DNA of 64,000 nt from NCBI RefSeq assembly GCF_048403405.1, contig NZ_CP183129.1. One strand, 5' to 3'. The notes beneath the pieces are model-generated. The model did not search any database, was not told the DNA's origin, and was given only the letters and a program-made list of their open reading frames with translations. Positions 3,448 through 55,886 of the stretch are shown here, one piece after another. The DNA comes from Escherichia coli (GTDB taxonomy: Bacteria > Pseudomonadota > Gammaproteobacteria > Enterobacterales > Enterobacteriaceae). A program made the position numbers and the translations under genes. Within the stretch, counting starts at the first letter, position 1. Every line of letters begins with the position of its first letter.

Positions 3448-4664
3448 AGGTCGGCTTCTTTTTACTGAAATTTCCGCTGTCGTCGGAAACCTTCGTCCTC
3501 AATCAAATTACCGCGTTTATTGATATGGGCTTTGAGGTGGAGATTGTCGCGCTGCAAAAAGGCGACACCCAGAACACCCACGCGGCATGGACGAAATACA
3601 ACCTTGCTGCCAGAACCCGCTGGTTACAGGACGAACCTACGGGCAAAGTGGCGAAACTGCGCCACCGCGCCAGCCAGACGTTACGCGGCATTCATCGTAA
3701 AAATACCTGGCAGGCGCTCAACCTCAAACGCTATGGCGCCGAGTCGCGGAACCTGATTTTGTCTGCCATTTGTGGTCAGGTCGCAACACCGTTTCGCGCC
3801 GATGTGTTCATCGCTCATTTTGGCCCTGCGGGGGTAACCGCAGCAAAACTACGCGAACTGGGTGTCATTCGCGGCAAAATTGCCACTATCTTCCACGGTA
3901 TTGATATCTCCAGTCGGGACGTGCTCAACCACTACACTCCCGAATATCAACAACTGTTTCGCCGTGGCGACCTGATGTTACCGATAAGCGATTTGTGGGC
4001 CGGAAGGCTGCAAAAAATGGGCTGTCCGAGGGAAAAAATCGCCGTATCGCGTATGGGCGTGGACATGACGCGCTTTAGCCCGCGTCCGGTGAAAGCGCCC
4101 GCAACGCCGCTGGAAATCATCTCCGTCGCACGCTTAACCGAGAAAAAAGGCCTGCATGTGGCGATCGAAGCCTGCCGGCAGTTGAAAGAGCAGGGCGTGG
4201 CATTTCGCTATCGCATCCTCGGCATTGGCCCGTGGGAACGACGCCTGCGCACGCTCATCGAACAATATCAACTGGAAGATGTGGTAGAGATGCCGGGCTT
4301 TAAACCGAGCCATGAAGTGAAAGCGATGCTCGACGACGCGGATGTCTTCCTGTTGCCATCGATAACGGGTGCGGATGGCGATATGGAAGGTATTCCGGTG
4401 GCGCTAATGGAAGCGATGGCGGTCGGCATTCCGGTTGTTTCAACTCTGCATAGCGGAATACCAGAACTGGTGGAGGCCGATAAATCCGGCTGGCTGGTGC
4501 CTGAGAACGATGCTCGCGCACTGGCGCAACGACTGGCGGCGTTTAGCCAACTGAACACCGACGAACTGGCTCCGGTCGTCAAACGTGCGCGCGAAAAAGT
4601 CGAACACGATTTTAACCAGCAGGTGATTAATCGAGAACTCGCCAGCTTGCTGCAGGCTTTATAG
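3444..4664 (+). CDS. wcaL: Colanic acid glycosyltransferase (GT4 family)
   Basis: 406 aa; 4-bp overlap with wcaK; GT4 EX7E-like region ([20 protein letters not shown]). Confidence 0.85.
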
Positions 4665-4674
4665 AGGAGAACGT

Positions 4675-6069
4675 ATGCCATTTAAAAAACTCTCCCGACG
4701 CACCTTCCTGACGGCAAGCTCCGCGCTTGCCTTCCTCCATACCCCTTTCGCCCGTGCACTTCCCGCCCGACAAAGCGTTAACATTAACGACTACAACCCA
4801 CACGACTGGATCGCCTCATTTAAACAAGCCTTCGGCGAAGGGCAAACGGTCGTCGTGCCTGCCGGATTGGTTTGCGACAATATCAACACCGGCATCTTCA
4901 TTCCTGCAGGTAAAACGTTACACATCCTTGGAAGCCTGCGCGGCAACGGCAGAGGGCGATTTGTCTTACAGGACAGCAGCCAGGTGACAGGGGAGGAGGG
5001 TGGCAGTATGCATAACATCACCCTGGATGTGCGTGGCTCTGACTGCACCATCAAAGGGCTGACGATGAGCGGCTTTGGTCCGGTAACGCAGATTTATATC
5101 GGCGGCAAAAACAAACGAGTAATGCGTAACCTCTCCATCGATAACCTGACCGTTAGCCACGCTAATTACGCCATCTTACGCCAGGGATTTCATAACCAGA
5201 TTATCGGTGCCAACATCACCAACTGTAAATTTAGTGATTTACAGGGCGACGCCATTGAATGGAACGTGGCGATTAACGACCGTGATATTTTGATATCTGA
5301 CCATGTCATCGAGCGCATCAACTGTACCAACGGCAAAATCAACTGGGGTATCGGCATAGGCCTTGCGGGAAGTACCTACGATAATAACTACCCGGAAGAC
5401 CAGGCAGTGAAAAACTTTGTCGTGGCGAATATCACGGGATCGGATTGTCGGCAGTTGATCCATGTTGAAAATGGTAAACATTTTGTTATTCGTAATATCA
5501 AAGCCCGCAATATCACGCCGGATTTCAGCAAGAAAGCAGGCATTGATAACGCGACAGTTGCTATTTACGGTTGTGACAATTTCGTGATTGATAATATTGA
5601 AATGATTAATAGCGCTGGGATGTTAATCGGCTATGGGGTAATTAAAGGCAAATATCTCTCAATACCGCAAAATTTCCGAGTGAATAATATTCAAATGGAT
5701 AACACCCATCTTGCTTATAAATTGCGCGGTATCCAAATCTCTGCCGGGAATGCTGTCTCCTTTGTGGCGCTGACTAACATTGAGATGAAGCGTGCGTCGC
5801 TGGAGTTACACAACAAACCGCAACATCTTTTTATGCGAAATATCAAGGTGATGCAGGAATCCTCAGTTGGACCCGCATTGAGCATGAACTTCGACATGCG
5901 CAAAGACGTTCGCGGCGTCTTTATGGCGAAAAAAGAAACACTGCTGTCACTTGCAAATGTTCATGCGGTGAATGAAAAAGGGCAAAGCTCCGTCGATATC
6001 GACAGAGTTAATCACCACATTGTTAATGTGGAAAAGATTAACTTTAGATTGCCAGAACGGAGGGAGTAG
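4675..6069 (+). CDS. wcaM: Colanic acid biosynthesis protein WcaM (signal peptide, beta-helix-like)
   Basis: 464 aa; N-terminal Tat-like signal ([13 protein letters not shown]); last gene of wca cluster by synteny. Confidence 0.8.
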
Positions 6070-6226
6070 ATTTGCGACCATTCATAAACTTACTGGATAT
6101 AATGTTCTAAAAGATTATAATCCTCACACTAACTGTTAAAGCTGGGGCTGGGCAGCATTGACTACTCAGGGAAGGTACTCATCTTTATCTTGTGTTTCTT
6201 ACGTAACAACCAGACTAAAGTGATTT

Positions 6227-7222
6227 ATGAACGATAACGTTTTGCTCATAGGAGCTTCCGGATTCGTAGGAACCCGACTACTTGAAACGGCAATTGCTGA
6301 CTTTAATATCAAGAACCTGGACAAACAGCAGAGCCACTTTTATCCAGAAATCACACAGATTGGCGATGTTCGTGATCAACAGGCACTCGACCAGGCGTTA
6401 GCCGGTTTTGACACTGTTGTACTACTGGCAGCGGAACACCGCGATGACGTCAGCCCTACTTCTCTCTATTATGATGTCAACGTTCAGGGTACCCGCAATG
6501 TGCTGGCGGCCATGGAAAAAAATGGCGTTAAAAATATCATCTTTACCAGTTCCGTTGCTGTTTATGGTTTGAACAAACACAACCCTGACGAAAACCATCC
6601 ACACGATCCTTTCAACCACTACGGCAAAAGTAAGTGGCAGGCAGAGGAAGTGCTGCGTGAATGGTATAACAAAGCACCAACAGAACGTTCATTAACTATC
6701 ATCCGTCCTACCGTTATCTTCGGTGAACGCAACCGCGGTAACGTCTATAACTTGCTGAAACAGATCGCTGGCGGCAAGTTTATGATGGTGGGCGCAGGGA
6801 CTAACTATAAGTCCATGGCTTATGTTGGAAACATTGTTGAGTTTATCAAGTACAAACTGAAGAATGTTGCCGCAGGTTATGAGGTTTATAACTACGTTGA
6901 TAAGCCAGACCTGAACATGAACCAGTTGGTTGCTGAAGTTGAACAAAGCCTGAACAAAAAGATCCCTTCTATGCACTTGCCTTACCCACTAGGAATGCTG
7001 GGTGGATATTGCTTTGATATCCTGAGCAAAATTACGGGCAAAAAATACGCTGTCAGCTCAGTGCGCGTGAAAAAATTCTGCGCAACAACACAGTTTGACG
7101 CAACGAAAGTGCATTCTTCAGGTTTTGTGGCACCGTATACGCTGTCGCAAGGTCTGGATCGAACACTGCAGTATGAATTCGTTCATGCCAAAAAAGACGA
7201 CATAACGTTTGTTTCTGAGTAA
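6227..7222 (+). CDS. gne: UDP-N-acetylglucosamine 4-epimerase (SDR family)
   Basis: 331 aa; Rossmann GASGFVG and catalytic YGKSK motifs; sits between wcaM and galF as gne does in O157/O55-type loci. Confidence 0.75.
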   Translation: MNDNVLLIGASGFVGTRLLETAIADFNIKNLDKQQSHFYPEITQIGDVRDQQALDQALAGFDTVVLLAAEHRDDVSPTSLYYDVNVQGTRNVLAAMEKNGVKNIIFTSSVAVYGLNKHNPDENHPHDPFNHYGKSKWQAEEVLREWYNKAPTERSLTIIRPTVIFGERNRGNVYNLLKQIAGGKFMMVGAGTNYKSMAYVGNIVEFIKYKLKNVAAGYEVYNYVDKPDLNMNQLVAEVEQSLNKKIPSMHLPYPLGMLGGYCFDILSKITGKKYAVSSVRVKKFCATTQFDATKVHSSGFVAPYTLSQGLDRTLQYEFVHAKKDDITFVSE

Positions 7223-7464
7223 TGCAGACGAGTCAGAGAAATAAGGACCAGGTTGGACTACGATTATTCGGAAAGAGGTACTGATTAAATTATCAGTATG
7301 CGGAATTCCGAGTAATCCGAGTAACCCAGATGCTGATGGTGTGTAGTGTTATTCTAAGGTTTAAGCAAAGTTATGCGGAACTAAGCTTTGGTATATAGCC
7401 ATAACGTTTGGCTAACCTATGGCAATAATTTACGCACTATCAGCCACTTAGAGGTAGGAAAAGA

Positions 7465-8618: not shown

Positions 8619-8657
8619 CAGTGCACTGGTAGCTGTTAAGCCAGGGGCGGTAGCGTG
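8619..8657 (+). promoter_or_regulatory. JUMPstart element with ops site (GGCGGTAGC), RfaH-dependent antitermination signal
   Basis: Sequence cagtgcactggtagctgttaagccaggggcggtagcgtg between galF and first O-antigen gene; ops core GGCGGTAGC visible. Confidence 0.6.
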
Positions 8658-8667
8658 GATTGATGGA

Positions 8668-39734: not shown

Positions 39735-39929
39735 TTACAGCAACTGGTGAGGGCTGGCATAAGTTGCCGGTGTTTCGGTAGAGTCACGGTCATCCACCAC
39801 GCGGAGTGAATAACCGTTTTCAGCGGCCTTATTAATCAGTTCAGTGATATTAACACCATCAATGTCAACGACAATGTGCCCCATATCCAGCGCCTGTACG
39901 TTAACGCTGTCGGCTTCCAGTGTCATCAT
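39735..39929 (-). CDS. yeeW: Prophage protein YeeW
   Basis: 64 aa; start overlaps the cbtA reading-frame end (ATGA); CP4-44 synteny. Confidence 0.65.
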   Translation of the reverse strand: MMTLEADSVNVQALDMGHIVVDIDGVNITELINKAAENGYSLRVVDDRDSTETPATYASPHQLL

Positions 39930-40299
39930 TTCGCCTCCGGATACTTACCCAGGGTAATGTTATTTACCGTTCTGTAATTGTCGCGGGTCATCAGGCCGGT
40001 CGCCCTGCGAGCCCGGAGGATATCGATGCTGTTTATTAACTGAGAGCGGGTACAGGCGCTGAATCCCGGCTGGTCGGTAGCACCAGCGCGTATTTTTCCA
40101 CGAGAAAGTTCACCGCATCACACAGTGAAATGCCTGCCTCAATATGCTGCTCAATCACACGTTCATCGGCAAAAGGTGTGTCATTCTGTGTGAGGCCATA
40201 GTGCTGGTCCAGCAGTCGGGACAGCAGTATCTGCCAGATTTCAACAGGAGACGGGCGAGAACTGGCCGCCTGCCCGGGTAATACAGGTAATGTTTTCAT
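39926..40299 (-). pseudogene. cbtA: CbtA (YeeV) toxin gene, frameshifted
   Basis: N-terminal 72 aa match CbtA; intact ORF ends after 87 aa, while the remainder of the toxin is readable in another frame down to the yeeW start. Confidence 0.65.
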
Positions 40300-40387
40300 A
40301 CTGAAGATTTTCCTGATATGCAGATATAAAAATGGAAAAGTGGCGTGGTGAAAACACCAGGCCGTAGCAGAAGGCTATTCTGGAGAG

Positions 40388-40756
40388 TTAATTTTTCATT
40401 TCGGGCGTCGGATAAACAGCCAGATAAACGTAACCACAACTGCTGAGGGTATCGGCTTTGCAGGTCAGCCCTTTTGCATACAGCGTGACGGTATGCTGAT
40501 GGCGGGGATTCAGTTCACCGCTGGTGAGCATGAGTTCCAGTTGTTTCATCAGCAGCGGAAAGGCCTGGTCCAGGTGGTACGCATCTGCATCGCTGAACAG
40601 GCCTCTGATACCGGCGCGGTCGGCAAGGTAATGCAGGCGGTTACCCTCCTGCACCAGACGTGCCCCGAAACAGGGCGTCACGGTGCAGGGCAGCCCCCAC
40701 CAGGGGCGGTCGTGATTGTCGTCGGGAAGTGTTGTCCCGGGGAGTGTGTCTGACAC
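40388..40756 (-). CDS. cbeA: CbeA (YeeU) antitoxin
   Basis: 122 aa; recalled CbeA sequence; directly upstream of cbtA. Confidence 0.85.
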   Translation of the reverse strand: MSDTLPGTTLPDDNHDRPWWGLPCTVTPCFGARLVQEGNRLHYLADRAGIRGLFSDADAYHLDQAFPLLMKQLELMLTSGELNPRHQHTVTLYAKGLTCKADTLSSCGYVYLAVYPTPEMKN

Positions 40757-40829
40757 GATAAAATCCTTACAGAAAATCGGCTAAGAATGGTCCGGTAGTG
40801 GCGATAATTCTGCTCATCAGAATTCCCAC

Positions 40830-41051
40830 TCAGTTCAGGGTGACGCTCATCAGCCGGACATACGGACCAAAACTGTCCTTACGGCGTTCGGCAAACACGG
40901 CCAGCACACCGGGAATATCCTGCACTTCACGACCGGTATAAACCTCAGCACTGCCGTGCCAGCGGTATTTGCCGGTACAGAACGAAAAAAGACGGGATGC
41001 CGGATGCTGACGGTGAATACGCATGGCTTCGCCACGGGTGATAATTTTCAT
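40830..41051 (-). CDS. yeeT: Prophage protein YeeT (DUF987)
   Basis: 73 aa; conserved position between radC-like gene and cbeA. Confidence 0.75.
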   Translation of the reverse strand: MKIITRGEAMRIHRQHPASRLFSFCTGKYRWHGSAEVYTGREVQDIPGVLAVFAERRKDSFGPYVRLMSVTLN

Positions 41052-41113
41052 AATGGGATACCTCTGAAGACAGAAGATAAAAGTGAAAACAGGTGTGATG
41101 TGGTTGTGACGGG

Positions 41114-41605
41114 TTAAAGCAGACCATGTTCGGCAAAGGAGAAAACCTGGTTGCCACCGACTATCAGATGGTCCGGCACCCGGATATCCACCAGGCCCAG
41201 TGCCTGTACCAGACGTTCCGTGATAAGGCAGTCTGCCTTGCTGGGTGTGACTTCACCGGACGGGTGATTGTGTGCCAGCACCACGGCAGCGGCATTGTGA
41301 TACAGGGCGCGTTTAATCACTTCCCGGGGATGGACTTCCGTGCGGTTGATGGTGCCGGTGAAGAGGGTTTCACCGGCAATCAGCTGATTCTGGTTATTCA
41401 GATACAGCACCCGGAATTCTTCACGCTCCAGTCCCGCCATGTTCAGAATCAGCCATTCCCGTGCCGCACGGGTGGAGGTGAAGGGCACGCCGGGTTCATG
41501 AAGATGGCGGTCCAGGGTTTTCAGGGCCCGCAGAATGAGGCTGCGCTCGCCGGGCGTCATCTCTCCTGGCAGAAAGGAAAGTTGTTGCATTGTGCTTCTC
41601 TCCAT
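41114..41605 (-). CDS. yeeS: RadC-like JAB-domain protein (YeeS/YfjY family)
   Basis: JAMM motif region (HNHPSGEVTPSKADCLIT); likely true start at MQQLSFLPGE. Confidence 0.8.
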   Translation of the reverse strand: MERSTMQQLSFLPGEMTPGERSLILRALKTLDRHLHEPGVPFTSTRAAREWLILNMAGLEREEFRVLYLNNQNQLIAGETLFTGTINRTEVHPREVIKRALYHNAAAVVLAHNHPSGEVTPSKADCLITERLVQALGLVDIRVPDHLIVGGNQVFSFAEHGLL

Positions 41606-42085
41606 TCAGTCGATGATGCGCATAATGGCGCTGCATTCCGGATGCTGCAGGGCGTAATCCCGCAGCCGGTAATAATGGACCGTCATGGCATAACACTCTG
41701 TACGACAGGCATGATGACTGTACGTCATCAGACAGGCAGCAATGCCGGCGGCTTCCGGGCTCATTTCAGCGCGGTTACCGTTCATGACATTGAACAGTAC
41801 CCATGTTTCGTCATCATCGTCATCCGGTTCGGGTACCATAAATGCCCCGCCGTTGTTCAGGGTGTACAGATTCCAGATACCACCGCAGTAGTCTTCGCAC
41901 AGACGGTCCATCCAGCCGAAGACACGGGGCTCCAGGGTCACCCACTGTGGAATGAGGCCAAAATGCTGCGGCCAGAAGCTGATGCGCTGTTCATCAGGGA
42001 CGAGGCTGGCAACCAACTGAGGCGGATTATTCTCTGGTGTTGTAGCTGAATAAATTGTGGGGGTATTCTGAGAAACGGTTTTCAT
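41606..42085 (-). CDS. Antirestriction protein (YfjX/YafX, KlcA/ArdB-like)
   Basis: 159 aa; acidic DDDDDE stretch; conserved prophage position upstream of radC-like gene. Confidence 0.7.
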   Translation of the reverse strand: MKTVSQNTPTIYSATTPENNPPQLVASLVPDEQRISFWPQHFGLIPQWVTLEPRVFGWMDRLCEDYCGGIWNLYTLNNGGAFMVPEPDDDDDETWVLFNVMNGNRAEMSPEAAGIAACLMTYSHHACRTECYAMTVHYYRLRDYALQHPECSAIMRIID

Positions 42086-42166: not shown

Positions 42167-42988
42167 TCAGCGCAGGCTCTCCAGCATCGTTTCTGCCATC
42201 ACCCACAATGCGCGATTGAGCTTAATGTCGGTATCAATGCTGTGAATGGCCCGGGTATGGATACGTTTTCCTCTGGCACTGCGACCGGAAATCCCGCCTT
42301 TCAGCATATTCTCCTGGATGGTCTGATATGCGCTCCACAGGTCCTTACCGTAATCCTCCCGGCGTCGCGGCGTCAGAATGTCGGCGGTGGTGACGGGCTG
42401 ATGTTCGTCACCATAACGGTAAGTCAGTGCCGCCTGTGCCAGCGCCTGGCGTGCCGGTGGCGGCAGGACCAGCGACTGCATGGCATCACGCTTCTCCTCT
42501 ATCCGGTCAAACACGCCCACCACCTCGTAAGCCCCTTCGATAACTTTCTCCACTACATTTCCCCGGTGTGGAACACGCACTTCCCCCAGAGACTGGCCAC
42601 AGACGCACCCGTTCTGGCAGACGAACCTGAAGTAACCCGGCAGCATCTGGTAGCTGGAGGTACCGTCATGAGAGTTGAGCAGAATAATTTCAGGGACATG
42701 TTCTCCGTTTATCTCTCCGGCCCGCCGCAGACGCAGCATGTGTTTTGTGTATCCCCGGCGGCCCGGGTCGCGCACACGGGTCTGGCAGGCGAAGAACGGC
42801 TGAAAGCCTTCCCGCTGCAGATTTTCCAGGACGGTAATGGTGGGAATGTACGCATACCGTTCACTGCGGGAGATGTGCCGGTCTTCCCCAAAAATACTGG
42901 GTACATGGCGTATCAGTTCTTCATGTGTCAGCGGACGGTCACGGCGTATCTGGTTTGCAGCATAACCAAAACGACTGGCTAATCGCAT
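42167..42988 (-). CDS. DUF932-family prophage protein (YfjQ/YafZ-like)
   Basis: 273 aa; recalled family and conserved position in CP4-type elements. Confidence 0.6.
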   Translation of the reverse strand: MRLASRFGYAANQIRRDRPLTHEELIRHVPSIFGEDRHISRSERYAYIPTITVLENLQREGFQPFFACQTRVRDPGRRGYTKHMLRLRRAGEINGEHVPEIILLNSHDGTSSYQMLPGYFRFVCQNGCVCGQSLGEVRVPHRGNVVEKVIEGAYEVVGVFDRIEEKRDAMQSLVLPPPARQALAQAALTYRYGDEHQPVTTADILTPRRREDYGKDLWSAYQTIQENMLKGGISGRSARGKRIHTRAIHSIDTDIKLNRALWVMAETMLESLR

Positions 42989-44453: not shown

Positions 44454-45524
44454 TTATTTAATCCGGGCCATCGCGTTTCTCAGTGCCAAATCTGCCTCTT
44501 CCGTTATATCCAGGCTTTTCTGCAATACCGCCTCTGACCGGGTCAGTGCCTGACGTGCTGCCAGCGGTTTCCGGATATGCTCCATCGCCAGCATCGTGTC
44601 TTCATAGCCCTGCTGACGCCAGGCGTCGGTATGTGCCGATGTAAAACTGAGCAGACCGCCGCTGTTGCCACCATCACCTGCATATTTCAGCCTTTTCCGG
44701 GGACGGATCTCAAGGATTGTGGTGTCCGGAAAAGCCTGGCGATCCCATAAAGAACCGTCACTCAGATGCGTCACAATCACCATATTGCATCCGGCATCGA
44801 CCAGAGGCGTCACAGGGGTATTTCCCTGCATATTTCGCCATCCTCCCATACCACCATCACCGAACATTGTCCCCTGAACCTCACGGGGACGGAACAGCAG
44901 GGGCAGCGCGGCTGACGCAAGCAGAGCCTCTTTCTGCTGTCCGCGGGGCAGGCTCTGGATATGCTGAAAAACGGCGTTTTTCGTGGTTCCGACACCCAGT
45001 TCAGCACGAATGCAGTCAATAATATCCTGCATGCCCCCTTCTGTGGGGTACAGCGACACATACAGCGGTAGCCCGTCTGCCAGAGCATCAGTATCAAGAT
45101 AATGATCCATCAGCGCTGTCAGGGGCTCATCTGACAACAACGGCTGAGCCATCAGATTGTCAAACCCGTTGATTGTCGATATATGGCGAAGAAGCGTCGT
45201 AAGCAGTGCTCCTGCACGTCCGGGGATCTGGCAGAGGTTCATTGCCTGGAACAATTTTTTCAGCAATGAAAAGTAAACCAATCTGTTTACCGACAGCACC
45301 TGATTATTCCCCAGATGATCCCAGAGCGCCTCCAGGCGTACGGCAGCTTCTGACAGATCGGTAGAGGCCGCGATAATGGCACCATTGAATGCGCCAATGC
45401 TGGCCCCTGAAACCATGCTGATCTGTGTACCACACTCTGCCAGTGCCTTAACCACTCCCGCCTGATAAGCGCCCACCGCCCCGCCACCGGACAGCACCAG
45501 CCCCGTTTTCATTTCTGTACTCAT
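44454..45524 (-). CDS. Patatin-like phospholipase
   Basis: 356 aa; oxyanion GGGAVGAYQAG, nucleophile GxSxG (GASIG), catalytic DGG (FGDGGMGG); start ATG overlaps upstream stop (ATGA). Confidence 0.8.
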   Translation of the reverse strand: MSTEMKTGLVLSGGGAVGAYQAGVVKALAECGTQISMVSGASIGAFNGAIIAASTDLSEAAVRLEALWDHLGNNQVLSVNRLVYFSLLKKLFQAMNLCQIPGRAGALLTTLLRHISTINGFDNLMAQPLLSDEPLTALMDHYLDTDALADGLPLYVSLYPTEGGMQDIIDCIRAELGVGTTKNAVFQHIQSLPRGQQKEALLASAALPLLFRPREVQGTMFGDGGMGGWRNMQGNTPVTPLVDAGCNMVIVTHLSDGSLWDRQAFPDTTILEIRPRKRLKYAGDGGNSGGLLSFTSAHTDAWRQQGYEDTMLAMEHIRKPLAARQALTRSEAVLQKSLDITEEADLALRNAMARIK

Positions 45525-46426
45525 GCAGCCCCCTTCTGAAATATTTCATCGACCATACTTTCAGAGAGGCGTTCTGCAGAGCAGAGGCGAGGCATGCGAA
45601 CCGGTAAGTGTTCTGCAGCCTGCGTGGTTGACCAGATCACCGGATGCTGCTCTTCACTGCACCAGTCTCCCAGCCAGTTAATCGCGTCATGCCACTCGTT
45701 ATCTGCCTGCTCCCGGCCCTGACCACCAAGCCAGTCCAGAGTGTTCAGACGCACGGTTGCACTACCGCCACTCTCCTGTGCCATCTGCGTTAATGCTTTA
45801 TGTCTGAGAATATCCAGTAGCTGGTTAACCTGGCCTGTTTCGCTCTGACGTATCACATCACCAAACGCGCCCCAGCGAAGCTCTTCAAGTGCCACATAAC
45901 AACGTCCGGCAGGGGAAAATGACGCATATCGCCCGGCGCTCCACCATGAGAATATCTGCTCAAGATGTAACTGCGCCCGCTGAACCTGGTCAACACGGTG
46001 GAGTTTTTCTTCAAGATGATTCAGTTTATGGTGAACCTGATCGGCCAGGGTGAGTAACTGCTCCCGCGTATCTGCGGAATAATGCGCCAGCCTGGCTGTA
46101 TCACTGACCAGTGAACTGACCCTGTCGTTTACCCGGGTAATCGCGTAGTTTGTGGTGGCAAGTGACGTTGTCATCTCCGTCAGCCAGCGCAGGGACGCCT
46201 CAACGCCCTGTGCAAGCGACGCATTGATGGCATTCTGCCGTGCAGCGCCTTCGCCGGTCAGCCCCTCTTTTAAACGCCGGAAGAACGTGCGCTCTCCGGC
46301 CGTGCGGATATGCTCCTGTGCAACATCGATTCCGTTTGCGAAATCAACCACAAATTTTTCAGGAAGACAGGTGAGTACCTGACATACCCGGTTATCAGCA
46401 ATTTGTTGAATAAATGGTGAAGTCAC
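45521..46426 (-). CDS. Hypothetical 301-aa alpha-helical protein coupled between the GTPase and the phospholipase
   Basis: GTG start overlaps stop of upstream gene, own stop overlaps patatin ATG; no recognised motif. Confidence 0.55.
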   Translation of the reverse strand: MTSPFIQQIADNRVCQVLTCLPEKFVVDFANGIDVAQEHIRTAGERTFFRRLKEGLTGEGAARQNAINASLAQGVEASLRWLTEMTTSLATTNYAITRVNDRVSSLVSDTARLAHYSADTREQLLTLADQVHHKLNHLEEKLHRVDQVQRAQLHLEQIFSWWSAGRYASFSPAGRCYVALEELRWGAFGDVIRQSETGQVNQLLDILRHKALTQMAQESGGSATVRLNTLDWLGGQGREQADNEWHDAINWLGDWCSEEQHPVIWSTTQAAEHLPVRMPRLCSAERLSESMVDEIFQKGAA

Positions 46427-48819
46427 AGCATTGTCTCCAGCTCTTCCCTCAGCGCCTTACTGTCAGTAATGAGCTCAGGAACCCTTTCATTTAATGCCTG
46501 AAGTCGCCCGGTAAGCCGTTCCTGCGCCTGCTGATCGCGTTTATGATCTTCAGAGCTCTGAATCAGCGTGTTACGCAGTTGTTCAACTTTCTCCCTGAAT
46601 GCGCAGAAAAAGGCATCGATTTCCTGGCGGACGGGCTGGTTAATATCCTGCTCAATGGATGCCTGCAGCTCCCCGAAATATGCCCGGGTCAGTGACATAA
46701 CTTCCTCTCTGACCTTGTTGATATTGATCACGCTGCGACTCACATCCTCGTCATAGTTTTCCCAGCCCAGGTCACTGGTGCCAAACCATCGACAAACGGT
46801 TCCCCATACGCCACTCTGCCGACGGCGACGGGTGACGGTCTCCGTTCTTTCCTCCATAAGCGCACTCAGATTTATTTTTACCGCGAGCCGGGTCTGTAAC
46901 TGGCTGACTGCCGGAAAACTGATTTTTACGGTAAAGCCCTCATCCTCCAGGCGGGCATTGATGCGACCGGCAATGTTTTCTGTGGCGTACAGGGCCGTGC
47001 CACGAAAACCTGTTTCAATCCCGCTGACGATTTTCTCCAGCTCAGGCCGGAACTGTGCTTCAGCCTCACGGTGCAGGCTGGTCACGGTCGATTCGATTTG
47101 CGTCATCAGTTCAAGGGCTTCCCTGCGATCACTGAATTTTATTTCGGGGCTGTCCGGGGCAAAATCTCGTTTCCTGTAATCCTCCCGGCCCTGGTTGTTG
47201 ATACCGGACCATTGAGAAATTTTCCCCCATAATCCGGACTGAGACCTTCGTTGTTCTGCGTCTTCTTCCTCCAGCATTTGCTGTTCTTTGCGTTTACCGC
47301 TTCTGAAATAGTCATTCAGCTCCTCTTCCAGTGAGGTGCAGACCCCCGTCAGTAATTCCCGGGTTTTAGTATCGATCTCCTCCATGGCCATTCTGACATC
47401 AGTGGTCATCTGCTCCTGACAGTCCGCGATTTCCCGGATATCCGCAAGCAGGCTGGTGATATGCGACTGCAGTGACTGAATGCTTTGCTGTAGCCCCTGA
47501 TGGCGTAACAACAGGTATTCACTGATATTTTCTGCATTCTGCATCAGTTTTGCGGCGGCAGAGTCAACCGCCAGTGCCGCAGCTCTGGAATGTGAGCTCT
47601 GTATGACTTCCGTTATCAGTTGATCGATAAGTGAGCCTTCCCACAGGTCTGTCGCCCCTTCAGTTGCCAGTTCACTGTCTTTACAGACGTATTCTTTTTT
47701 CATGCAACCGAAGGCACCTCTGATAAAATCATCGACCCAGGCTTCATCAACAGGAAGGGTTCCGTTTTTCCGTAACTCATGAAGCGCACGGTTAGCCAGG
47801 TATGCCTGGCGTGAGGATCCGGGATAAACGCGGGAGGCGGGCAGCACATCGCTGTTCAGCATTGCCGGAACTTTCTGGCGTACGGCATCTGCCCCATCGC
47901 CATTGCGGTCTTTCTCATCAAATTTATTGACCAGTACAAACAGGCGGCCGGCTGATACGTCAGCAATGGCATTAAGCTCTTTACGGACGTCTTCATCCGC
48001 TTTTGAGTTCATCTGGGTGTAATCCATCACAGCCAGAACCGCAGAGGCTTTCTGCAGTTGATCCCGCATCATCACTTCCATCTGCGGTTGTCCGGCCTCA
48101 TTAGGGCCGGGGGTATCCAGCAGTGTGAGTGTTCCCTGGCATGCATCCATCCCCACCAGATGGCTGAATTCCACGTCGATCACCGGCAGTTTCTGCACTT
48201 CTGCGTATTCATCAAAAGGAAATTCAGTCCCCATTGCCGCAGCAAGACGAACCAGATCGTTTAACGATGCCAGTCCGGTAAAGATTTCCTCCTCCCCGTG
48301 GTATTCATTTTTGAGCCAGCCATCATCCGTCAGAATATCCAGCAGTTCGCGGGTATCCCCGGTTTGCTGCAGGGTCTGTGCGACCTGCTGTCCTGCCGGG
48401 GTGGCGAGTTTTTCCTGCAGTGTGATTAATAAATTGCGGACAGGCTGAATATGTTCCAGATGGAGAACCGGCTCAGTTTTTCCGGGAACGTGGCGGATGA
48501 GCGTCGGTACAGAGGTCATGGGGCGGTTACGGTTAGGCAGAATTTCCTGCCCCACAATGGCGTTGATGGTGGTTGATTTGCCTGCTTTCATCGTGCCGAC
48601 AACAGCCAGCACCATCTCCCTGCGGGCGGTTTTGATTTGTTCGCCCTCCAGCTCCTCAATTCTTTTCAGTGCTTTCTGTTTATCAAAAAGCAGTCTGTTT
48701 TCGTTCTTACTGTCAGATAACACATCTGGCTCCTCAACCATTTGCCGGAGCAGATTAATGTTCAGTTGCAAAAGTCGGTCGGCTTCATCACAAAGCAGGG
48801 CGATGTTCTTTTCGTGCAT
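46423..48819 (-). CDS. Dynamin-like large GTPase (bacterial DLP)
   Basis: 798 aa; P-loop GTMKAGKST, DTPG, NKFD in the first 300 aa, then about 500 aa helical/coiled-coil-like region; RBS GGAAGG upstream of ATG. Confidence 0.75.
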   Translation of the reverse strand: MHEKNIALLCDEADRLLQLNINLLRQMVEEPDVLSDSKNENRLLFDKQKALKRIEELEGEQIKTARREMVLAVVGTMKAGKSTTINAIVGQEILPNRNRPMTSVPTLIRHVPGKTEPVLHLEHIQPVRNLLITLQEKLATPAGQQVAQTLQQTGDTRELLDILTDDGWLKNEYHGEEEIFTGLASLNDLVRLAAAMGTEFPFDEYAEVQKLPVIDVEFSHLVGMDACQGTLTLLDTPGPNEAGQPQMEVMMRDQLQKASAVLAVMDYTQMNSKADEDVRKELNAIADVSAGRLFVLVNKFDEKDRNGDGADAVRQKVPAMLNSDVLPASRVYPGSSRQAYLANRALHELRKNGTLPVDEAWVDDFIRGAFGCMKKEYVCKDSELATEGATDLWEGSLIDQLITEVIQSSHSRAAALAVDSAAAKLMQNAENISEYLLLRHQGLQQSIQSLQSHITSLLADIREIADCQEQMTTDVRMAMEEIDTKTRELLTGVCTSLEEELNDYFRSGKRKEQQMLEEEDAEQRRSQSGLWGKISQWSGINNQGREDYRKRDFAPDSPEIKFSDRREALELMTQIESTVTSLHREAEAQFRPELEKIVSGIETGFRGTALYATENIAGRINARLEDEGFTVKISFPAVSQLQTRLAVKINLSALMEERTETVTRRRRQSGVWGTVCRWFGTSDLGWENYDEDVSRSVININKVREEVMSLTRAYFGELQASIEQDINQPVRQEIDAFFCAFREKVEQLRNTLIQSSEDHKRDQQAQERLTGRLQALNERVPELITDSKALREELETML

Positions 48820-48880
48820 TATTTAACCTTCCTAAGACGCATTTTCATGACAACCACGGAGGAGGTCATTTACTACAAAC

Positions 48881-48949
48881 GATCGTTTATAACGATCGAT
48901 ATGATAGTAACGATCGATGTATTCTATTAACTTGAGAAACACAACGCAA
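48881..48949 (-). promoter_or_regulatory. Sigma70-like promoter (TTGCGT-N17-TAGAAT) followed by three GATC sites in AACGATCG repeats; candidate Dam/OxyR phase-variation switch
   Basis: Minus strand: TTGCGT, 17-nt spacer, TAGAAT, then CGATCG x3 within about 35 bp, about 60 bp upstream of the GTPase ATG. Confidence 0.5.
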
Positions 48950-49036
48950 GGGGACAACCCGGGTATGGCTGCGTTTGCATAGTGTTTTCATGGAGTTAAA
49001 AATCTGTAACAACAGCCTGGTACATCACCACCGGGT

Positions 49037-49909
49037 TCAGAAGAAAATCCAGTTCCATACCGCGCGGGCAACAGAGACCACCGAGTCACGGACGGCACGC
49101 AGAACCGTGCGTGCAACAGAGGCAATACAGGCGCTCTCCGCCGTGTCAAATATCCGGTCCACCGCACCGGTAAACTGTTCACGGGCCTGAGCGCGGACAG
49201 ATTCCGTGCGCAGCTCGTCCTGCAGGCGGGTCATCAGGGGACTGGCGGCATGGTCGGGAAGTGCTGTCATGAGCGCACTGACCAGCGTATCCAGTTCCCA
49301 GCCGGTGCGGGCCGATACGGCAACAACCCGATGTACGGGCCGGAACAGACGGAATACCGCCTCCGTTTTTTCGCGAATGTTCTGTGCCTGTGCGGGAGAA
49401 GGCTGAATACCGGCCATATCCCATTCATGGCAGGGCTCCGTTTTATCGGCCTGCATCACCACAAACAGTACCCGCTGATGTCCCCGGTGCAGGATGTGTC
49501 GCCAGAAATACTCATCCACAGACAGGGCACGGTCATCGGCTTTAATCAGCCACAGTACCAGGTCCAGTTCGGGCAGAATGTCACGGTACAGGGCTTCATA
49601 CTCTGCATCCCTGTCCCGGCTCTCGCCCACCCCGGGCAGGTCAGTGATAACCATGCTGTGACCATGGCCATTCAGACGGAAGCGCTGCACTTCCCGGGTG
49701 CCGGCGTGAACATCACTGACCGGGGTGATCTCCCCCTGAAACAGCGCATTACAGAGTGAGGATTTACCGGCCCCGCTTTTACCCATAATGCCAGGCACGG
49801 GTTCGTGACTGGTGAGTTTGCGCAGATGTTCCAGGATGTGACGGGAAAGTGAGTAAGGCAGGGAGGAGAGCGGTTTTTCAATTGCCTCAATGGCATCAGA
49901 CGGATTCAT
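49037..49909 (-). CDS. yeeP: YeeP/YfjP/YkfA-family prophage GTPase
   Basis: Start chosen at MNPSD; P-loop GIMGKSGAGKSS, DLPG, MQADK; conserved CP4-type backbone gene. Confidence 0.7.
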   Translation of the reverse strand: MNPSDAIEAIEKPLSSLPYSLSRHILEHLRKLTSHEPVPGIMGKSGAGKSSLCNALFQGEITPVSDVHAGTREVQRFRLNGHGHSMVITDLPGVGESRDRDAEYEALYRDILPELDLVLWLIKADDRALSVDEYFWRHILHRGHQRVLFVVMQADKTEPCHEWDMAGIQPSPAQAQNIREKTEAVFRLFRPVHRVVAVSARTGWELDTLVSALMTALPDHAASPLMTRLQDELRTESVRAQAREQFTGAVDRIFDTAESACIASVARTVLRAVRDSVVSVARAVWNWIFF

Positions 49910-49992
49910 ACATGTATTCCCGGTGAAAAAAGACAAAACCCCGCGCACCGGAAAGGTGGCGGGGGATTCACGGAAATAATATCTGTCTGAAA

Positions 49993-51156
49993 TTATCTGG
50001 AATCGATTTGGCTGTTCTGCCTGGTTGCCACCAAATCATGGTACGCCTGCTCAATCATTTCATTCAGCAGTTTTTTTGGGAGGACACCACGACTTCGGGC
50101 AATACTTTCAAGCTGTTTGTGGATTTTTCCGGACAGTTTCAGAGGGACGGAACCATCAGCACGTTCATCACGCCTTTTTTGTTGCTCCCGGGCACTTTTC
50201 AGCTCATCAAGAAGAATCGCTTTATGCTGAATCCTGGGGGCCTGGAAGGAGACCTGCGTAAACTTCGCTCTGTTCCGTCTGGGATTACTTTCCAGTAAAA
50301 ACTGTACCTGTTGCTCATTCCAGCCCTCCCAGTTATCAAACGTGGCGCAGGCAAACCAGTATTTCTGCTCCGGGGTAAGGGGATTCAGCGGGGTTCCCAC
50401 ACACCGGATCTGCATGGCGTTCCATAACCAGTCACACTGTTCACTGTCCCTGCTGTCCACCCACGAAAAGGGGGAGGGGTAATCATTGTTTATGCTGGCC
50501 CATTCAGAGAATACTGAGTTGATAATCGTCCTCGTAGCCTCTGGTCCGGATTTCAGCAGGTAACTGGAGCAGAACCATATAATTTCACGGTAGATTTTAT
50601 CCGGATGCACGGTGCGCATCGGCTTTTCTCTGGGACCGGCAATCTTCGGTTGCGATGGAAACCCCGTGGCAAACCGCAGATGTTCCGGGGGCATTCCTGA
50701 ACGTTTTTCAGGAATGGGTGTGAGTCCTGCGTTTCTGGTCTTTTCCGCTTGTCCGGTATTGCCTCCGGCCGGAGTGTTGTCGGGAGTATCTTCCGGAGGC
50801 GAGGTGTTTTCATTAGTTGGGGGAACAACAGCAGAACTGTCCATCTCCGGAATGGGTTGAGGGGCATAATCACTGTGGTAGCCAGGGGAAAGCGTTAAGT
50901 CCCGAAGGGTGACATCAGGTTCCGGGCAGTGAGTGCCACCGGGAGTGAACGGGAGTTGTTGCTTTTGGGAGAAAAATGTATTGTGAATGCGGGTATACAG
51001 CTGGAACAGAAAAAAATAAGATGCCCGTGGTTCTTTTTTTAACCACTGTGTATATTCCTCTATGGCACCGAGCTGTTGTTTGTGCCGTTTTACAGTATCG
51101 ATATACGGACAGCTGGTGCAGATATCATCCAGTTCCTTTCCCACAATACACCTCAC
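49993..51156 (-). CDS. Hypothetical prophage protein with Pro-rich linker
   Basis: 387-aa ORF directly upstream of the yeeP-like gene; no confident family assignment; true start uncertain. Confidence 0.45.
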   Translation of the reverse strand: MRCIVGKELDDICTSCPYIDTVKRHKQQLGAIEEYTQWLKKEPRASYFFLFQLYTRIHNTFFSQKQQLPFTPGGTHCPEPDVTLRDLTLSPGYHSDYAPQPIPEMDSSAVVPPTNENTSPPEDTPDNTPAGGNTGQAEKTRNAGLTPIPEKRSGMPPEHLRFATGFPSQPKIAGPREKPMRTVHPDKIYREIIWFCSSYLLKSGPEATRTIINSVFSEWASINNDYPSPFSWVDSRDSEQCDWLWNAMQIRCVGTPLNPLTPEQKYWFACATFDNWEGWNEQQVQFLLESNPRRNRAKFTQVSFQAPRIQHKAILLDELKSAREQQKRRDERADGSVPLKLSGKIHKQLESIARSRGVLPKKLLNEMIEQAYHDLVATRQNSQIDSR

Positions 51157-53071: not shown

Positions 53072-53593
53072 ATGTCAAAGCCAAAATACCCTTTTGAAAA
53101 GCGCCTTGAAGTCGTGAATCACTACTTCACTACTGATGATGGTTACAGGATCATCTCGGCACGTTTTGGTGTCCCCCGAACCCAGGTCAGGACATGGGTT
53201 GCCCTCTATGAAAAACATGGAGAAAAAGGTTTAATTCCCAAACCTAAAGGTGTTAGTGCTGATCCAGAGTTGCGTATTAAGGTCGTGAAAGCTGTGATCG
53301 AGCAGCACATGTCCCTTAATCAGGCTGCTGCTCACTTTATGCTTGCTGGTAGTGGTTCTGTAGCCAGGTGGCTGAAGGTTTATGAAGAGCGCGGAGAAGC
53401 TGGTTTACGCGCGCTCAAGATTGGCACCAAAAGAAACATTGCAATATCAGTTGATCCAGAAAAAGCGGCATCAGCATTGGAGCTGTCAAAAGACCGACGT
53501 ATTGAGGATCTTGAAAGGCAAGTTCGATTTCTTGAAACGCGGCTTATGTATCTAAAAAAGCTGAAAGCCTTAGCTCATCCCACGAAAAAGTGA
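53072..53593 (+). CDS. insJ: IS150 OrfA
   Basis: 173 aa; recalled InsJ sequence (MSKPKYPFEKRLEVVNHYFTTDDGYRII). Confidence 0.9.
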   Translation: MSKPKYPFEKRLEVVNHYFTTDDGYRIISARFGVPRTQVRTWVALYEKHGEKGLIPKPKGVSADPELRIKVVKAVIEQHMSLNQAAAHFMLAGSGSVARWLKVYEERGEAGLRALKIGTKRNIAISVDPEKAASALELSKDRRIEDLERQVRFLETRLMYLKKLKALAHPTKK

Positions 53594-54441
53594 AAGTACT
53601 CAACGAGCTAAGGCAGTTTTATCCTCTTGATGAGCTTCTCAGGGCTGCGGAGATACCGCGCAGTACGTTTTATTACCATCTAAAGGCTCTCAGCAAGCCT
53701 GACAAGTATGCGGACGTTAAAAAGCGTATTGGTGAGATTTATCACGAGAATAGAGGCCGATACGGATACCGTAGGGTAACGCTGTCTCTTCATCGAGAAG
53801 GGAAACAGATTAACCATAAAGCTGTTCAGCGCCTGATGGGAACCCTCTCACTTAAAGCAGCGATTAAGGTCAAGCGATACCGCTCTTACAGAGGAGAGGT
53901 AGGGCAAACCGCCCCTAATGTTCTCCAAAGAGATTTCAAGGCTACGCGGCCAAACGAGAAGTGGGTTACCGATGTTACTGAATTTGCAGTCAATGGGCGC
54001 AAGCTGTATTTGTCTCCAGTAATAGATCTCTTCAACAACGAAGTTATTTCTTACAGCCTTTCGGAAAGACCAGTGATGAACATGGTTGAGAATATGCTCG
54101 ATCAGGCATTCAAAAAGCTTAATCCTCACGAGCATCCTGTTCTGCACTCTGACCAGGGATGGCAGTATCGTATGAGAAAATATCAAAATATTCTTAAAGA
54201 ACATGGTATTAAACAAAGCATGTCCAGAAAAGGCAATTGTCTGGATAATGCTGTGGTGGAGTGTTTCTTTGGAACCTTAAAGTCGGAGTGTTTTTATCTT
54301 GATGAGTTCAGTAATATAAGCGAACTGAAGGATGCTGTTACGGAATATATTGAATACTACAACAGCAGAAGAATTAGCCTGAAATTAAAAAGTCTGACTC
54401 CAATTGAATATCGGAATCAGACCTATATGCCTCGTGTTTAA
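53590..54441 (+). CDS. insK: IS150 OrfB transposase (DDE)
   Basis: 283 aa; recalled InsK sequence; overlaps insJ stop. Confidence 0.9.
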
Positions 54442-55679: not shown

Positions 55680-55886
55680 TTACGGACGGGACTGTGCAAT
55701 ACGCGCCTGCAGCCAGGCTTCCACTTCACTTTTCAGCCAGCGGGAGCTGCGCCCCATTTTGATGGGCGCAGGAAAGCCCCCATCTTTGATGAGTTTGTCA
55801 AACCACTTATCGGTTAGGCCGGTCAGTTGAGTGATAAACGCCATGTCGACCATCTGGTCATCCATCAGCGAAACTGGGGTAGCCAT
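55680..55886 (-). CDS. alpA: AlpA-family prophage transcriptional regulator
   Basis: C-terminal HTH region (FITQLTGLTDKWFDKLIKDGGFPAPIKMGRSSRWLKSEVEAWL) typical of Phage_AlpA; start trimmed to MATPV. Confidence 0.6.
   Translation of the reverse strand: MATPVSLMDDQMVDMAFITQLTGLTDKWFDKLIKDGGFPAPIKMGRSSRWLKSEVEAWLQARIAQSRP

What the first reader, a model, noticed from the sequence alone, without database searches (positions are those of the whole stretch)
49037..49909. YeeP-family GTPase appears intact here
The YeeP-like gene, which I recall as a pseudogene in K-12 CP4-44, has an uninterrupted about 290-codon frame with complete G motifs and lies directly upstream of the GATC-switch promoter and the dynamin-like operon. 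A functional link is untested.
Basis: partly seen in the sequence, partly recalled or inferred. Interest (0 to 1): 0.25.

Follow-up and report, generated by a model that had tools for sequence, protein, structure and literature searches.

The report
Intact YeeP island GTPase, ordinary
The gene is a real, uninterrupted copy of a very common GTPase gene that belongs to the conserved backbone of a family of E. coli genomic islands, and its position next to the dynamin/patatin operon reflects where these islands carry cargo, not a specific partnership.

Summary
Window 49037-49909 (minus strand) is an uninterrupted 290-codon gene, identical to RefSeq WP_001069805.1 'GTPase family protein'. It is 96% identical to the K-12 yeeP fragment, which lacks the N-terminus, and 49% identical to intact K-12 YfjP and YkfA. 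G1, G2, G3 and G5 are canonical. G4 reads MQAD where 57 other family members have N, S or T. This is a common allele (about 890 E. coli records), not a private lesion.

A specific link to the dynamin module is not supported. Among 5426 complete E. coli genomes, yeeP-like DNA occurs in 4538 (9719 places) and the dynamin gene in 2492 (3253 places). At least 67% of yeeP copies therefore lack it. The commonest downstream neighbour is Ag43/Cah (at least 3399 genomes).

Of 1963 genomes with a direct yeeP-dynamin junction, only 1072 have a full-length yeeP. Most of the rest appear to carry an in-frame deletion that removes G2-G5, as sampled loci show.

Across 67 loci in other species, DUF932 follows the GTPase in 48 and a dynamin module in 1.

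YeeP is a backbone gene at the head of the DUF932-ArdB-RadC-CbeA-CbtA module. Dynamin is one alternative cargo. This is ordinary and already annotated.

The parts
49037..49909 (-). YeeP/YfjP/YkfA-family GTPase gene, 290 codons, intact
   Evidence: ORF. Identical RefSeq CDS WP_001069805.1. Pfam MMR_HSR1 1.3e-14. 49% identity to K-12 YfjP and YkfA, 96% to the K-12 YeeP fragment. dN/dS 0.16-0.38 among Escherichia alleles.
49760..49783 (-). G1 / P-loop codons (G43-K-S-G-A-G-K-S50)
   Evidence: Invariant G46, G48, K49 and S50 in 58 family members.
49445..49456 (-). G4 codons M152-Q-A-D155; Met replaces the family's N/S/T
   Evidence: Column counts N 32, S 17, T 8, M 1. The exact 61-mer around it occurs in 888 E. 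coli records.
49939..49953 (-). Terminator-like hairpin plus T-run between the upstream ORF and yeeP
   Evidence: Consensus scan only; function not shown.
49993..51144 (-). Upstream hypothetical protein (383 aa as annotated), part of the same conserved haplotype block
   Evidence: No Pfam, NCBIfam, PADLOC or PHROG match. Present upstream of yeeP in 7 of the 9 database M152-allele loci viewed; absent in TR01 and 510016.
48820..49036 (-). 217-nt yeeP-dynamin spacer holding an agn43/cah-type switch core: promoter-like TTAATA-18-TATCAT (48930..48901) and three GATC sites (48881, 48894, 48912)
   Evidence: Alignment with the K-12 agn43 and O157/AH01 cah upstream regions. Promoter scan. GATC positions.
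46423..48819 (-). Dynamin-family GTPase, CrfC/RdcA-like (798 aa): cargo gene 1
   Evidence: Pfam Dynamin_N 2.8e-18. NCBIfam CrfC model E 1e-166 but 556 bits, below the 1146 cut-off.
45521..46426 (-). YjcZ/RdcB-family protein (301 aa): cargo gene 2
   Evidence: Pfam YjcZ 4e-70. RefSeq name 'diguanylate cyclase regulator RdcB family protein'.
44454..45524 (-). Patatin-like phospholipase (356 aa): cargo gene 3
   Evidence: Pfam Patatin 3e-24.
42167..42988 (-). DUF932 (YfjQ/YafZ-like) gene, the usual immediate downstream neighbour of YeeP-family genes
   Evidence: Annotation of the identical locus and translation check. Downstream of the GTPase in 48 of 67 loci from other species.
39926..42085 (-). 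Rest of the backbone module: antirestriction (41606-42085), yeeS JAB/RadC (41114-41590), yeeT DUF987 (40830-41051), cbeA (40388-40756), cbtA frameshifted (39926-40299)
   Evidence: The same order is found in K-12 CP4-6, CP4-57 and CP4-44 and in other species.
55680..55886 (-). AlpA-like helix-turn-helix gene, an upstream backbone marker of the island
   Evidence: An AlpA-like gene lies upstream of the GTPase in 33 of 67 loci from other species.

Best explanation
This is an ordinary, intact copy of the YeeP/YfjP/YkfA-family GTPase. The family is a conserved backbone gene of the CP4-type (P4-like, tRNA-associated) integrative islands of Enterobacterales.

The gene sits at the head of the accessory module GTPase, DUF932, ArdB/KlcA antirestriction, RadC-like JAB, DUF987, CbeA, CbtA. 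The space just downstream of the GTPase is a cargo slot. In E. coli the slot is filled by Ag43/Cah behind its Dam/OxyR-type GATC switch, by the dynamin-RdcB-patatin operon, by both, or by neither. In this window the slot holds the dynamin operon behind an agn43-type switch core. The adjacency reflects island architecture and shared descent, not a dedicated partnership.

Shown: family membership, intactness, purifying selection, synteny and the co-occurrence numbers.

Inferred: the protein is a GTP-binding protein. Its G domain is clasped by N- and C-terminal helices and it ends in an aromatic, hydrophobic tail (VVSVARAVWNWIFF). I think it most likely acts as a nucleotide-dependent, possibly membrane-associated GTPase serving the island itself, in establishment or in host or phage conflict, alongside the antirestriction and toxin-antitoxin genes. 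Its biochemical role is untested. The M152 variant of G4 may lower nucleotide affinity.
For: Intact ORF identical to an annotated RefSeq gene.

Family membership: 49% identity to YfjP and YkfA, 96% to the K-12 YeeP fragment.

Purifying selection: dN/dS 0.16-0.38.

E. coli complete genomes:
- yeeP-like DNA in 4538 of 5426 genomes, 9719 places.
- Dynamin gene in 2492 genomes, 3253 places.
- yeeP to Ag43/Cah junction in at least 3399 genomes.
- yeeP to dynamin junction in 1963 genomes, with full-length yeeP in 1072.

Arrangements seen:
- GTPase, agn43 (K-12).
- GTPase, cah, DUF932 (AH01).
- GTPase, cah, dynamin module (O157:H7).
- ykfA, yafZ and yfjP, yfjQ.

Other species, 67 loci with at least 3 kb downstream: DUF932 in 48, YeeS in 41, CbeA/CbtA in 37, antirestriction in 33, Ag43 in 4, dynamin module in 1, plus 1 upstream on the opposite strand.

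Independent decay of the two partners:
- An in-frame deletion of G2-G5 sits before an intact dynamin module.
- yeeP is frameshifted with dynamin intact.
- Dynamin and RdcB are disrupted by IS600 with yeeP intact.

Literature:
- The SRL PAI table lists orf46 YfjP/YeeP, orf47 Ag43, then YfjQ (PMC6980539).
- A 2025 preprint describes RadC/ArdB/CbtA-CbeA 'moron' modules as a conserved end of such integrative elements (PMC12458937).

Against: In E. coli nearly every dynamin module lies in the slot behind a yeeP sequence, either directly or after cah. So the probability of yeeP sequence given dynamin is high, although this is what one insertion site would give.

The M152/R194 yeeP allele was found with a dynamin module downstream in all 10 loci inspected. 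That linkage is compatible with co-adaptation as well as with descent of one block.

A distant dynamin-RdcB-patatin module lies 1.3 kb from a YeeP-family gene in Serratia oryzae.

Genomes with a deleted yeeP usually carry other yeeP-family copies (3-5 places per record) that could complement in trans.

No experiment on any family member was found, so the function assigned to the protein is inference only.
Confidence: 0.8

Rival explanations
1. YeeP is a dedicated accessory or regulatory GTPase of the dynamin-RdcB-patatin module. For example, it could be a small GTPase partner that hetero-oligomerises with the dynamin-like protein or controls its operon. The M152 allele would then be a specialised form.
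Against: At least 67% of yeeP copies lack the module. The module is kept intact behind a yeeP that has lost G2-G5 in most of the roughly 890 genomes where the junction lacks a full-length yeeP, and behind frameshifted yeeP. In O157:H7 cah separates the two. Only 1 of 67 loci in other species has the module downstream. K-12 rdcA-rdcB works without such a neighbour (PMC6510439 abstract, plus established knowledge). The Dynamin_N and LeoBC matches cover only the generic P-loop-to-G3/G4 part.
Confidence: 0.05
2. YeeP acts on the phase-variable switch just downstream of it, whatever the cargo (Ag43/Cah or dynamin). It could do so through read-through transcription from yeeP into the switch or through a protein effect on the ON/OFF state.
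For: The agn43/cah-type switch core lies directly after the yeeP stop codon in the Ag43, Cah and dynamin arrangements. These junctions together account for most E. coli yeeP copies. No convincing terminator lies between yeeP and the switch, apart from the GATC palindrome itself.
Against: K-12 phase-varies Ag43 with a yeeP that lacks its N-terminus, including G1-G3 (plus established knowledge of Dam/OxyR control of agn43). YkfA, YfjP and most relatives in other species are followed directly by DUF932 at about +100 nt, with no switch. No paper linking yeeP to agn43 regulation was found.
Confidence: 0.05
3. This copy is intact in frame but functionally decaying. The M152 change in G4 and the R194 change would mark a hitch-hiking allele on its way to becoming a pseudogene.
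For: M152 is unique among 58 family members at a nucleotide-specificity position. Within the same haplotype, 2 of 10 inspected copies are frameshifted or truncated. A large lineage carries an internal deletion.
Against: The allele is full length in 7 of the 9 database M152-allele loci viewed, and the M152 61-mer occurs in about 890 records. dN/dS within the haplotype and against other alleles is 0.16-0.36. Position 194 tolerates Q, K and E in distant members. Met at G4 position 1 is not known to abolish binding.
Confidence: 0.1

Closest known systems
E. coli K-12 YeeP (CP4-44 pseudogene), YfjP (CP4-57) and YkfA (CP4-6)
   Same: Same family. 96% identity to the surviving 184 residues of K-12 YeeP. 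49% identity over the full length to YfjP and YkfA (E about 1e-95). Same length class (287-291 aa) and the same C-terminal VVSVARAVW..FF tail. Same place in the island, upstream of the DUF932 / antirestriction / RadC-JAB / DUF987 / CbeA-CbtA genes.
   Different: K-12 YeeP lacks residues 1-106 (G1-G3) and this copy is full length. This copy has M152 in G4, where YeeP has T and YfjP and YkfA have S. Its downstream neighbour is the dynamin operon rather than agn43 (YeeP) or DUF932 (YfjP, YkfA).
Era / EngA(Der) / EngB / MnmE GTPases (Pfam MMR_HSR1)
   Different: All NCBIfam equivalog scores are far below their cut-offs, for example Era 48.8 bits against 237. There is no KH or other RNA-binding domain. 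G4 has Q where these proteins have K. Helical N- and C-terminal extensions are present instead.
Immunity-related GTPases (Irga6/IIGP1, Irgb6) and Toc34/GIMAP-type GTPases
   Same: Best whole-chain Foldseek matches of the AF2 model (E about 1e-8, TM-score 0.55-0.58 normalised to the query, about 280 aligned columns). The shared layout is a G domain flanked by N- and C-terminal helices.
Bacterial dynamin-like proteins (LeoA/LeoBC of the Eleos system, BDLP, CrfC/RdcA)
   Different: At 290 aa it has no stalk or paddle. The matches cover only the generic G-domain core. The true dynamin-family gene of this locus is the 798-aa neighbour.

Membership tests
YeeP/YfjP/YkfA GTPase family (RefSeq 'GTPase family protein', UniRef 'YfjP family GTPase') | Full-length sequence similarity to the named K-12 members | tested here: met
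   49% identity to YfjP (E 2e-95) and YkfA (E 4e-95). 96% identity to the K-12 YeeP fragment. 3215 homologues at E <= 1e-5.
YeeP/YfjP/YkfA GTPase family (RefSeq 'GTPase family protein', UniRef 'YfjP family GTPase') | Family G motifs: GK[ST]G[AV]GKSS, invariant T71-R72, D-x-P-G, S-A-x | tested here: met
   All are present in the window protein. The columns are invariant or nearly so in 58 members.
YeeP/YfjP/YkfA GTPase family (RefSeq 'GTPase family protein', UniRef 'YfjP family GTPase') | Family G4 motif [N/S/T]-Q-x-D-K | tested here: inconclusive
   Q153, D155 and K156 are present. The first residue is M152, the only Met among 58 members. The allele is common, in 888 records. The effect on GTP binding is not testable here.
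YeeP/YfjP/YkfA GTPase family (RefSeq 'GTPase family protein', UniRef 'YfjP family GTPase') | Synteny: same strand, upstream of DUF932, antirestriction, RadC-JAB, DUF987, CbeA, CbtA | tested here: met
   The window shows this order with the dynamin cargo inserted. The same order is seen in K-12 and in 37-48 of 67 loci from other species.
Era / EngA / MnmE orthologues (ribosome- or tRNA-associated GTPases) | Score at or above the NCBIfam equivalog cut-off, plus the family's accessory domain (KH, second G domain, MnmE N-terminal domain) | tested here: not met
   Era 48.8 bits against 237, MnmE 47 against 380, Der 42.9 against 306.7. Only the G domain aligns.
Dynamin family / Eleos LeoA-LeoBC | Full Dynamin_N domain plus helical stalk, or a full-length match to the LeoA or LeoBC profiles | tested here: not met
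   Dynamin_N matches only profile positions 99-166 of 168. LeoBC matches only positions 83-162 of 601, and LeoA is at E 0.0039. The protein is 290 aa.
Immunity-related GTPase (IRG/p47)-like fold | G domain with N- and C-terminal helical domains superposing on Irga6 | tested here: inconclusive
Dedicated component of the dynamin-RdcB-patatin module | Co-occurrence: the gene is present with the module and absent without it, and the module depends on an intact copy | tested here: not met
   At least 6466 of 9719 yeeP places and at least 2046 genomes lack the dynamin gene. Ag43/Cah junctions occur in at least 3399 genomes. Only 1 of 67 loci in other species has the module downstream. The module is intact behind deleted or frameshifted yeeP.

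The most novel reading that the evidence does not exclude
The YeeP family could be a minimal bacterial IRG/dynamin-superfamily-like, membrane-acting GTPase kept at the head of the accessory module of P4-like islands. The M152/R194 allele, seen so far only in loci that carry the dynamin-RdcB-patatin operon, could be a co-adapted partner of that operon, for example a small GTPase subunit or a regulator of a phase-variable membrane-remodelling or lipase system.
Probability: 0.05. Interest if true: 0.45.

Novelty: already known. Interest (0 to 1): 0.1.

Why it matters
It matters little as a discovery. The gene is annotated identically in RefSeq, and full-length copies are present in three quarters of complete E. 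coli genomes.

The work does correct a K-12-centred impression: the pseudogene state of yeeP is the exception, not the rule. It also shows that the dynamin-RdcB-patatin operon is one of several alternative cargos in the slot behind this backbone GTPase. Any study of that operon or its GATC switch therefore need not treat yeeP as part of the system.

The family itself remains functionally uncharacterised despite its abundance. That is a modest open question.

Tried and rejected
Literature. Searches for yeeP, yfjP and ykfA, with and without 'GTPase', and for dynamin + patatin + agn43 + phase variation found no functional study. yeeP appears mainly as a neutral integration site in metabolic engineering. 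yfjP was once deleted as a 'putative regulator', with no effect pursued.

Defence and phage libraries. PADLOC gave only weak partial LeoBC, SspF and LeoA matches to the generic G domain. PHROGs gave two families of unknown function. I rejected a defence-system assignment.

Private lesions. I first suspected that M152 and R194 were private inactivating changes. I rejected this because the exact 61-mers occur in 888 and 903 records, and position 194 varies in distant members.

The 'remnant' upstream of dynamin in A21/ST131-type genomes. I first read it as a 5' truncation. BLAST showed an in-frame internal deletion instead.

One alignment call failed because L035 carries an internal stop in its GTPase.

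Not done: a complete per-locus cross-tabulation of all 9719 yeeP places. The tools return only counts and samples.

Full report
**Observation.** On the minus strand of the window an ORF runs from ATG 49909 to a stop at 49037-49039, 290 codons. An in-frame GTG at 49948 would give 303. The same 873 bases are annotated in E. coli FDAARGOS_497 as WP_001069805.1 'GTPase family protein', 100% identical. Pfam MMR_HSR1 matches at E 1.3e-14, above its cut-off. The nearest database proteins score E about 1e-183. The ORF is therefore real and is not a chance frame.

**Family and G motifs.** The protein is 96% identical to the 184 residues that survive of K-12 YeeP. It is 49% identical over its whole length to K-12 YfjP (E 2e-95) and YkfA (E 4e-95). 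The state of each motif, from alignments of 23 and 58 family members:
- G1 (G43-K-S-G-A-G-K-S50), G2 (T71), G3 (D90-L-P-G93) and G5 (S199-A-R) are intact and sit in invariant or nearly invariant columns.
- G4 in this family is [N/S/T]-Q-x-D-K, with N in 32 members, S in 17 and T in 8. The window has M152, the only Met.
- A second unusual residue, R194, replaces the usual Pro. That position tolerates Q, K and E in distant members.

Neither change is private. The exact 61-mers around them occur in 888 and 903 E. coli records, in the same strains. Pairwise dN/dS among six Escherichia alleles is 0.16-0.38, so the gene is under purifying selection. 'Complete G motifs' is right for four motifs. For G4 it needs the qualification that this common allele carries Met at the first position.

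**K-12.** In a K-12 derivative the gene is a 552-nt fragment annotated 'incomplete; missing N-terminus'. It lies next to TonB-receptor fragments and IS2 and is followed by agn43, yeeR, yeeS, yeeT, cbeA and cbtA. It is the exception, though: a place covering at least 80% of the gene exists in 4071 of 5426 complete E. coli genomes, with 9719 places in 4538 genomes and a median of 2 per genome.

**Surroundings.** Downstream on the same strand lie, in order:
- a 217-nt spacer;
- a 798-aa dynamin-family gene (Pfam Dynamin_N 2.8e-18; CrfC/RdcA model E 1e-166, but below its cut-off);
- a YjcZ/RdcB-family gene;
- a patatin-like phospholipase;
- two small secreted proteins;
- DUF932, an antirestriction gene, yeeS, yeeT, cbeA and a frameshifted cbtA.

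The spacer aligns with the regulatory regions of K-12 agn43 and of cah over the block TTAATAGAATA..CGATCG..ATCGATCG..CGATCGTTT, which holds all three GATC sites. A promoter-like TTAATA-18-TATCAT lies at 48930..48901. Calling this spacer a 'GATC-switch promoter' is therefore supported by homology, although switching itself was not tested here.

**Co-occurrence in E. coli.** The counts among 5426 complete genomes are:

| Feature | Genomes | Places |
|---|---|---|
| yeeP-like DNA | 4538 | 9719 |
| Dynamin gene | 2492 | 3253 |
| yeeP 3' end + spacer + Ag43/Cah 5' end (at least 80% covered) | 3399 | - |
| yeeP 3' end + spacer + dynamin 5' end | 1963 | - |
| Full-length yeeP + spacer + dynamin | 1072 | - |

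Each dynamin gene can neighbour at most one yeeP. So at least 6466 yeeP places (67%) and at least 2046 genomes have yeeP without the module.

Most of the roughly 890 genomes that have the junction but no full-length yeeP appear to carry an in-frame internal deletion, to judge from the sampled loci (A21, the ST131 strain JJ1886 and similar hits). It removes residues of about 66-209, that is G2 to G5. The dynamin, RdcB-like and patatin genes behind it remain intact.

Individual loci show every combination:
- GTPase, agn43 (K-12).
- GTPase, cah, DUF932.
- GTPase, cah, dynamin module (O157:H7).
- ykfA, yafZ and yfjP, yfjQ with no cargo.

**The M152/R194 allele.** All 10 loci inspected carry a dynamin module downstream: 8 directly, one after an IS600 insertion that also disrupts the dynamin and RdcB genes, and one after cah. 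Seven of the nine database loci viewed also share the upstream 383-aa hypothetical gene and the adjacent IS and ATPase fragments. This is one haplotype block inherited together. Within it, yeeP is frameshifted or truncated in two genomes with the module intact. In one genome dynamin and RdcB are disrupted by IS600 with yeeP intact. The two partners decay independently.

**Co-occurrence in other species.** A scan of one genome per species returned 80 loci with YeeP-family genes at 34-96% identity. tblastn with the window's proteins covered the 67 loci that have at least 3 kb downstream:

| Neighbour of the GTPase | Loci (of 67) |
|---|---|
| DUF932 downstream (often about 100 nt after the GTPase) | 48 |
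| YeeS downstream | 41 |
| CbeA and CbtA downstream | 37 each |
| Antirestriction gene downstream | 33 |
| AlpA-like gene upstream | 33 |
| Ag43 downstream | 4 |
| Dynamin module downstream (Escherichia albertii) | 1 |

Serratia oryzae has a distant dynamin module (37-50% identity) upstream on the opposite strand. The stable partners of the family are the backbone genes, not the dynamin module. This matches published descriptions:
- The Shigella SRL island lists orf46 YfjP/YeeP, orf47 Ag43, then YfjQ, YfjX, YeeS, YeeT and YeeU (PMC6980539).
- A 2025 preprint describes RadC/ArdB/CbtA-CbeA modules as a conserved end of prophage-like integrative elements that carry variable cargo (PMC12458937).

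**What the protein is like.** An AlphaFold2 model built on 58 sequences (pLDDT 87.8, pTM 0.87) shows a G domain with two N-terminal helices and a C-terminal helical region. The chain ends in VVSVARAVWNWIFF.
- Foldseek ranks Irga6/IIGP1 first (E about 1e-8, TM-score 0.55-0.58 normalised to the query), followed by Toc34, GIMAP7 and Era.
- By sequence the closest solved proteins are Der and Era (E about 1e-6). All orthologue-level models score far below their cut-offs.

The protein is a TRAFAC-class GTPase of its own family, with a helical clasp reminiscent of IRG and dynamin-type proteins. Membership of those families is not shown. No functional study of YeeP, YfjP or YkfA was found.

**Verdict.** The best explanation (confidence about 0.8) is that this is an ordinary intact copy of a backbone gene of CP4-type islands. 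The dynamin-RdcB-patatin operon is one alternative cargo in the slot behind it. The most novel reading not excluded is that the M152 allele is co-adapted to the module, or that the family is a small membrane-acting GTPase. That reading has low probability and would need the genetic and biochemical tests listed.

Noticed in passing
window 48880-48930 (minus strand), between yeeP and the dynamin gene: The spacer carries the core of the agn43/cah Dam-OxyR-type switch (TTAATAGAATA plus three GATC sites at 48881, 48894 and 48912, spacing 13 and 18). Here it lies only about 60-90 nt upstream of the dynamin start codon, without the long agn43 leader. O157:H7 strains have GTPase, switch, cah, then dynamin, so the window arrangement looks like loss or replacement of cah. 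No paper on a phase-variable dynamin/patatin operon was found.
   Followed up: partly
L058 (Serratia oryzae) 8636-8667, and 3036-7449 on the opposite strand to the GTPase: Three GATC sites with the same 13/18 spacing and similar flanks as the E. coli switch. They point toward a 138-aa ORF and a distantly related (37-50% identity) dynamin-RdcB-patatin module that is divergent from a YeeP-family gene.
   Followed up: partly
L004 3813-4247 (strain A21); same form in ST131 JJ1886 (H124): In most of the roughly 890 E. coli genomes whose yeeP-dynamin junction lacks a full-length yeeP, the sampled loci carry a 144-codon in-frame internal-deletion derivative of yeeP. Residues of about 66-209 (G2-G5) are lost. 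It sits next to a TonB-dependent receptor gene and directly upstream of an intact dynamin module.
   Followed up: yes
window 44454-48819 (minus strand): The cargo operon is a paralogue of the K-12 rdcA(crfC/yjdA)-rdcB(yjcZ) GTPase partner system that regulates DgcE (PMC6510439), extended by a patatin-like phospholipase. The dynamin scores 556 bits on the CrfC model, against a cut-off of 1146. It is present in 2492 of 5426 complete E. coli genomes.
   Followed up: partly
window 39926-40299 (minus strand): The cbtA toxin gene of the island is frameshifted, with 5 stops in the K-12 frame, while the cbeA antitoxin is intact.
   Followed up: no
window 49993-51144 (minus strand): A 383-aa protein upstream of yeeP has no match in Pfam, NCBIfam, PADLOC or PHROGs. 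It travels with the M152 yeeP allele in 7 of the 9 database M152-allele loci viewed, and weak relatives (23-30% identity) lie upstream of the GTPase in 4 loci from other species.
   Followed up: no
window 53072-54441 (plus strand): An IS150 copy (two ORFs with a programmed frameshift) is inserted in the island between the AlpA/hyp200 region and fragments of IS21 and AAA-ATPase genes. The island backbone upstream of yeeP is heavily eroded by IS elements.
   Followed up: no
L011 11088-12813 (Hafnia paralvei) and similar 2-kb inserts in L007, L008, L012 and L013: In several other species the slot between the GTPase and DUF932 holds a 229-aa regulator-like protein (its family was not checked) plus two small secreted proteins. 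This is another alternative cargo of the same slot.
   Followed up: no
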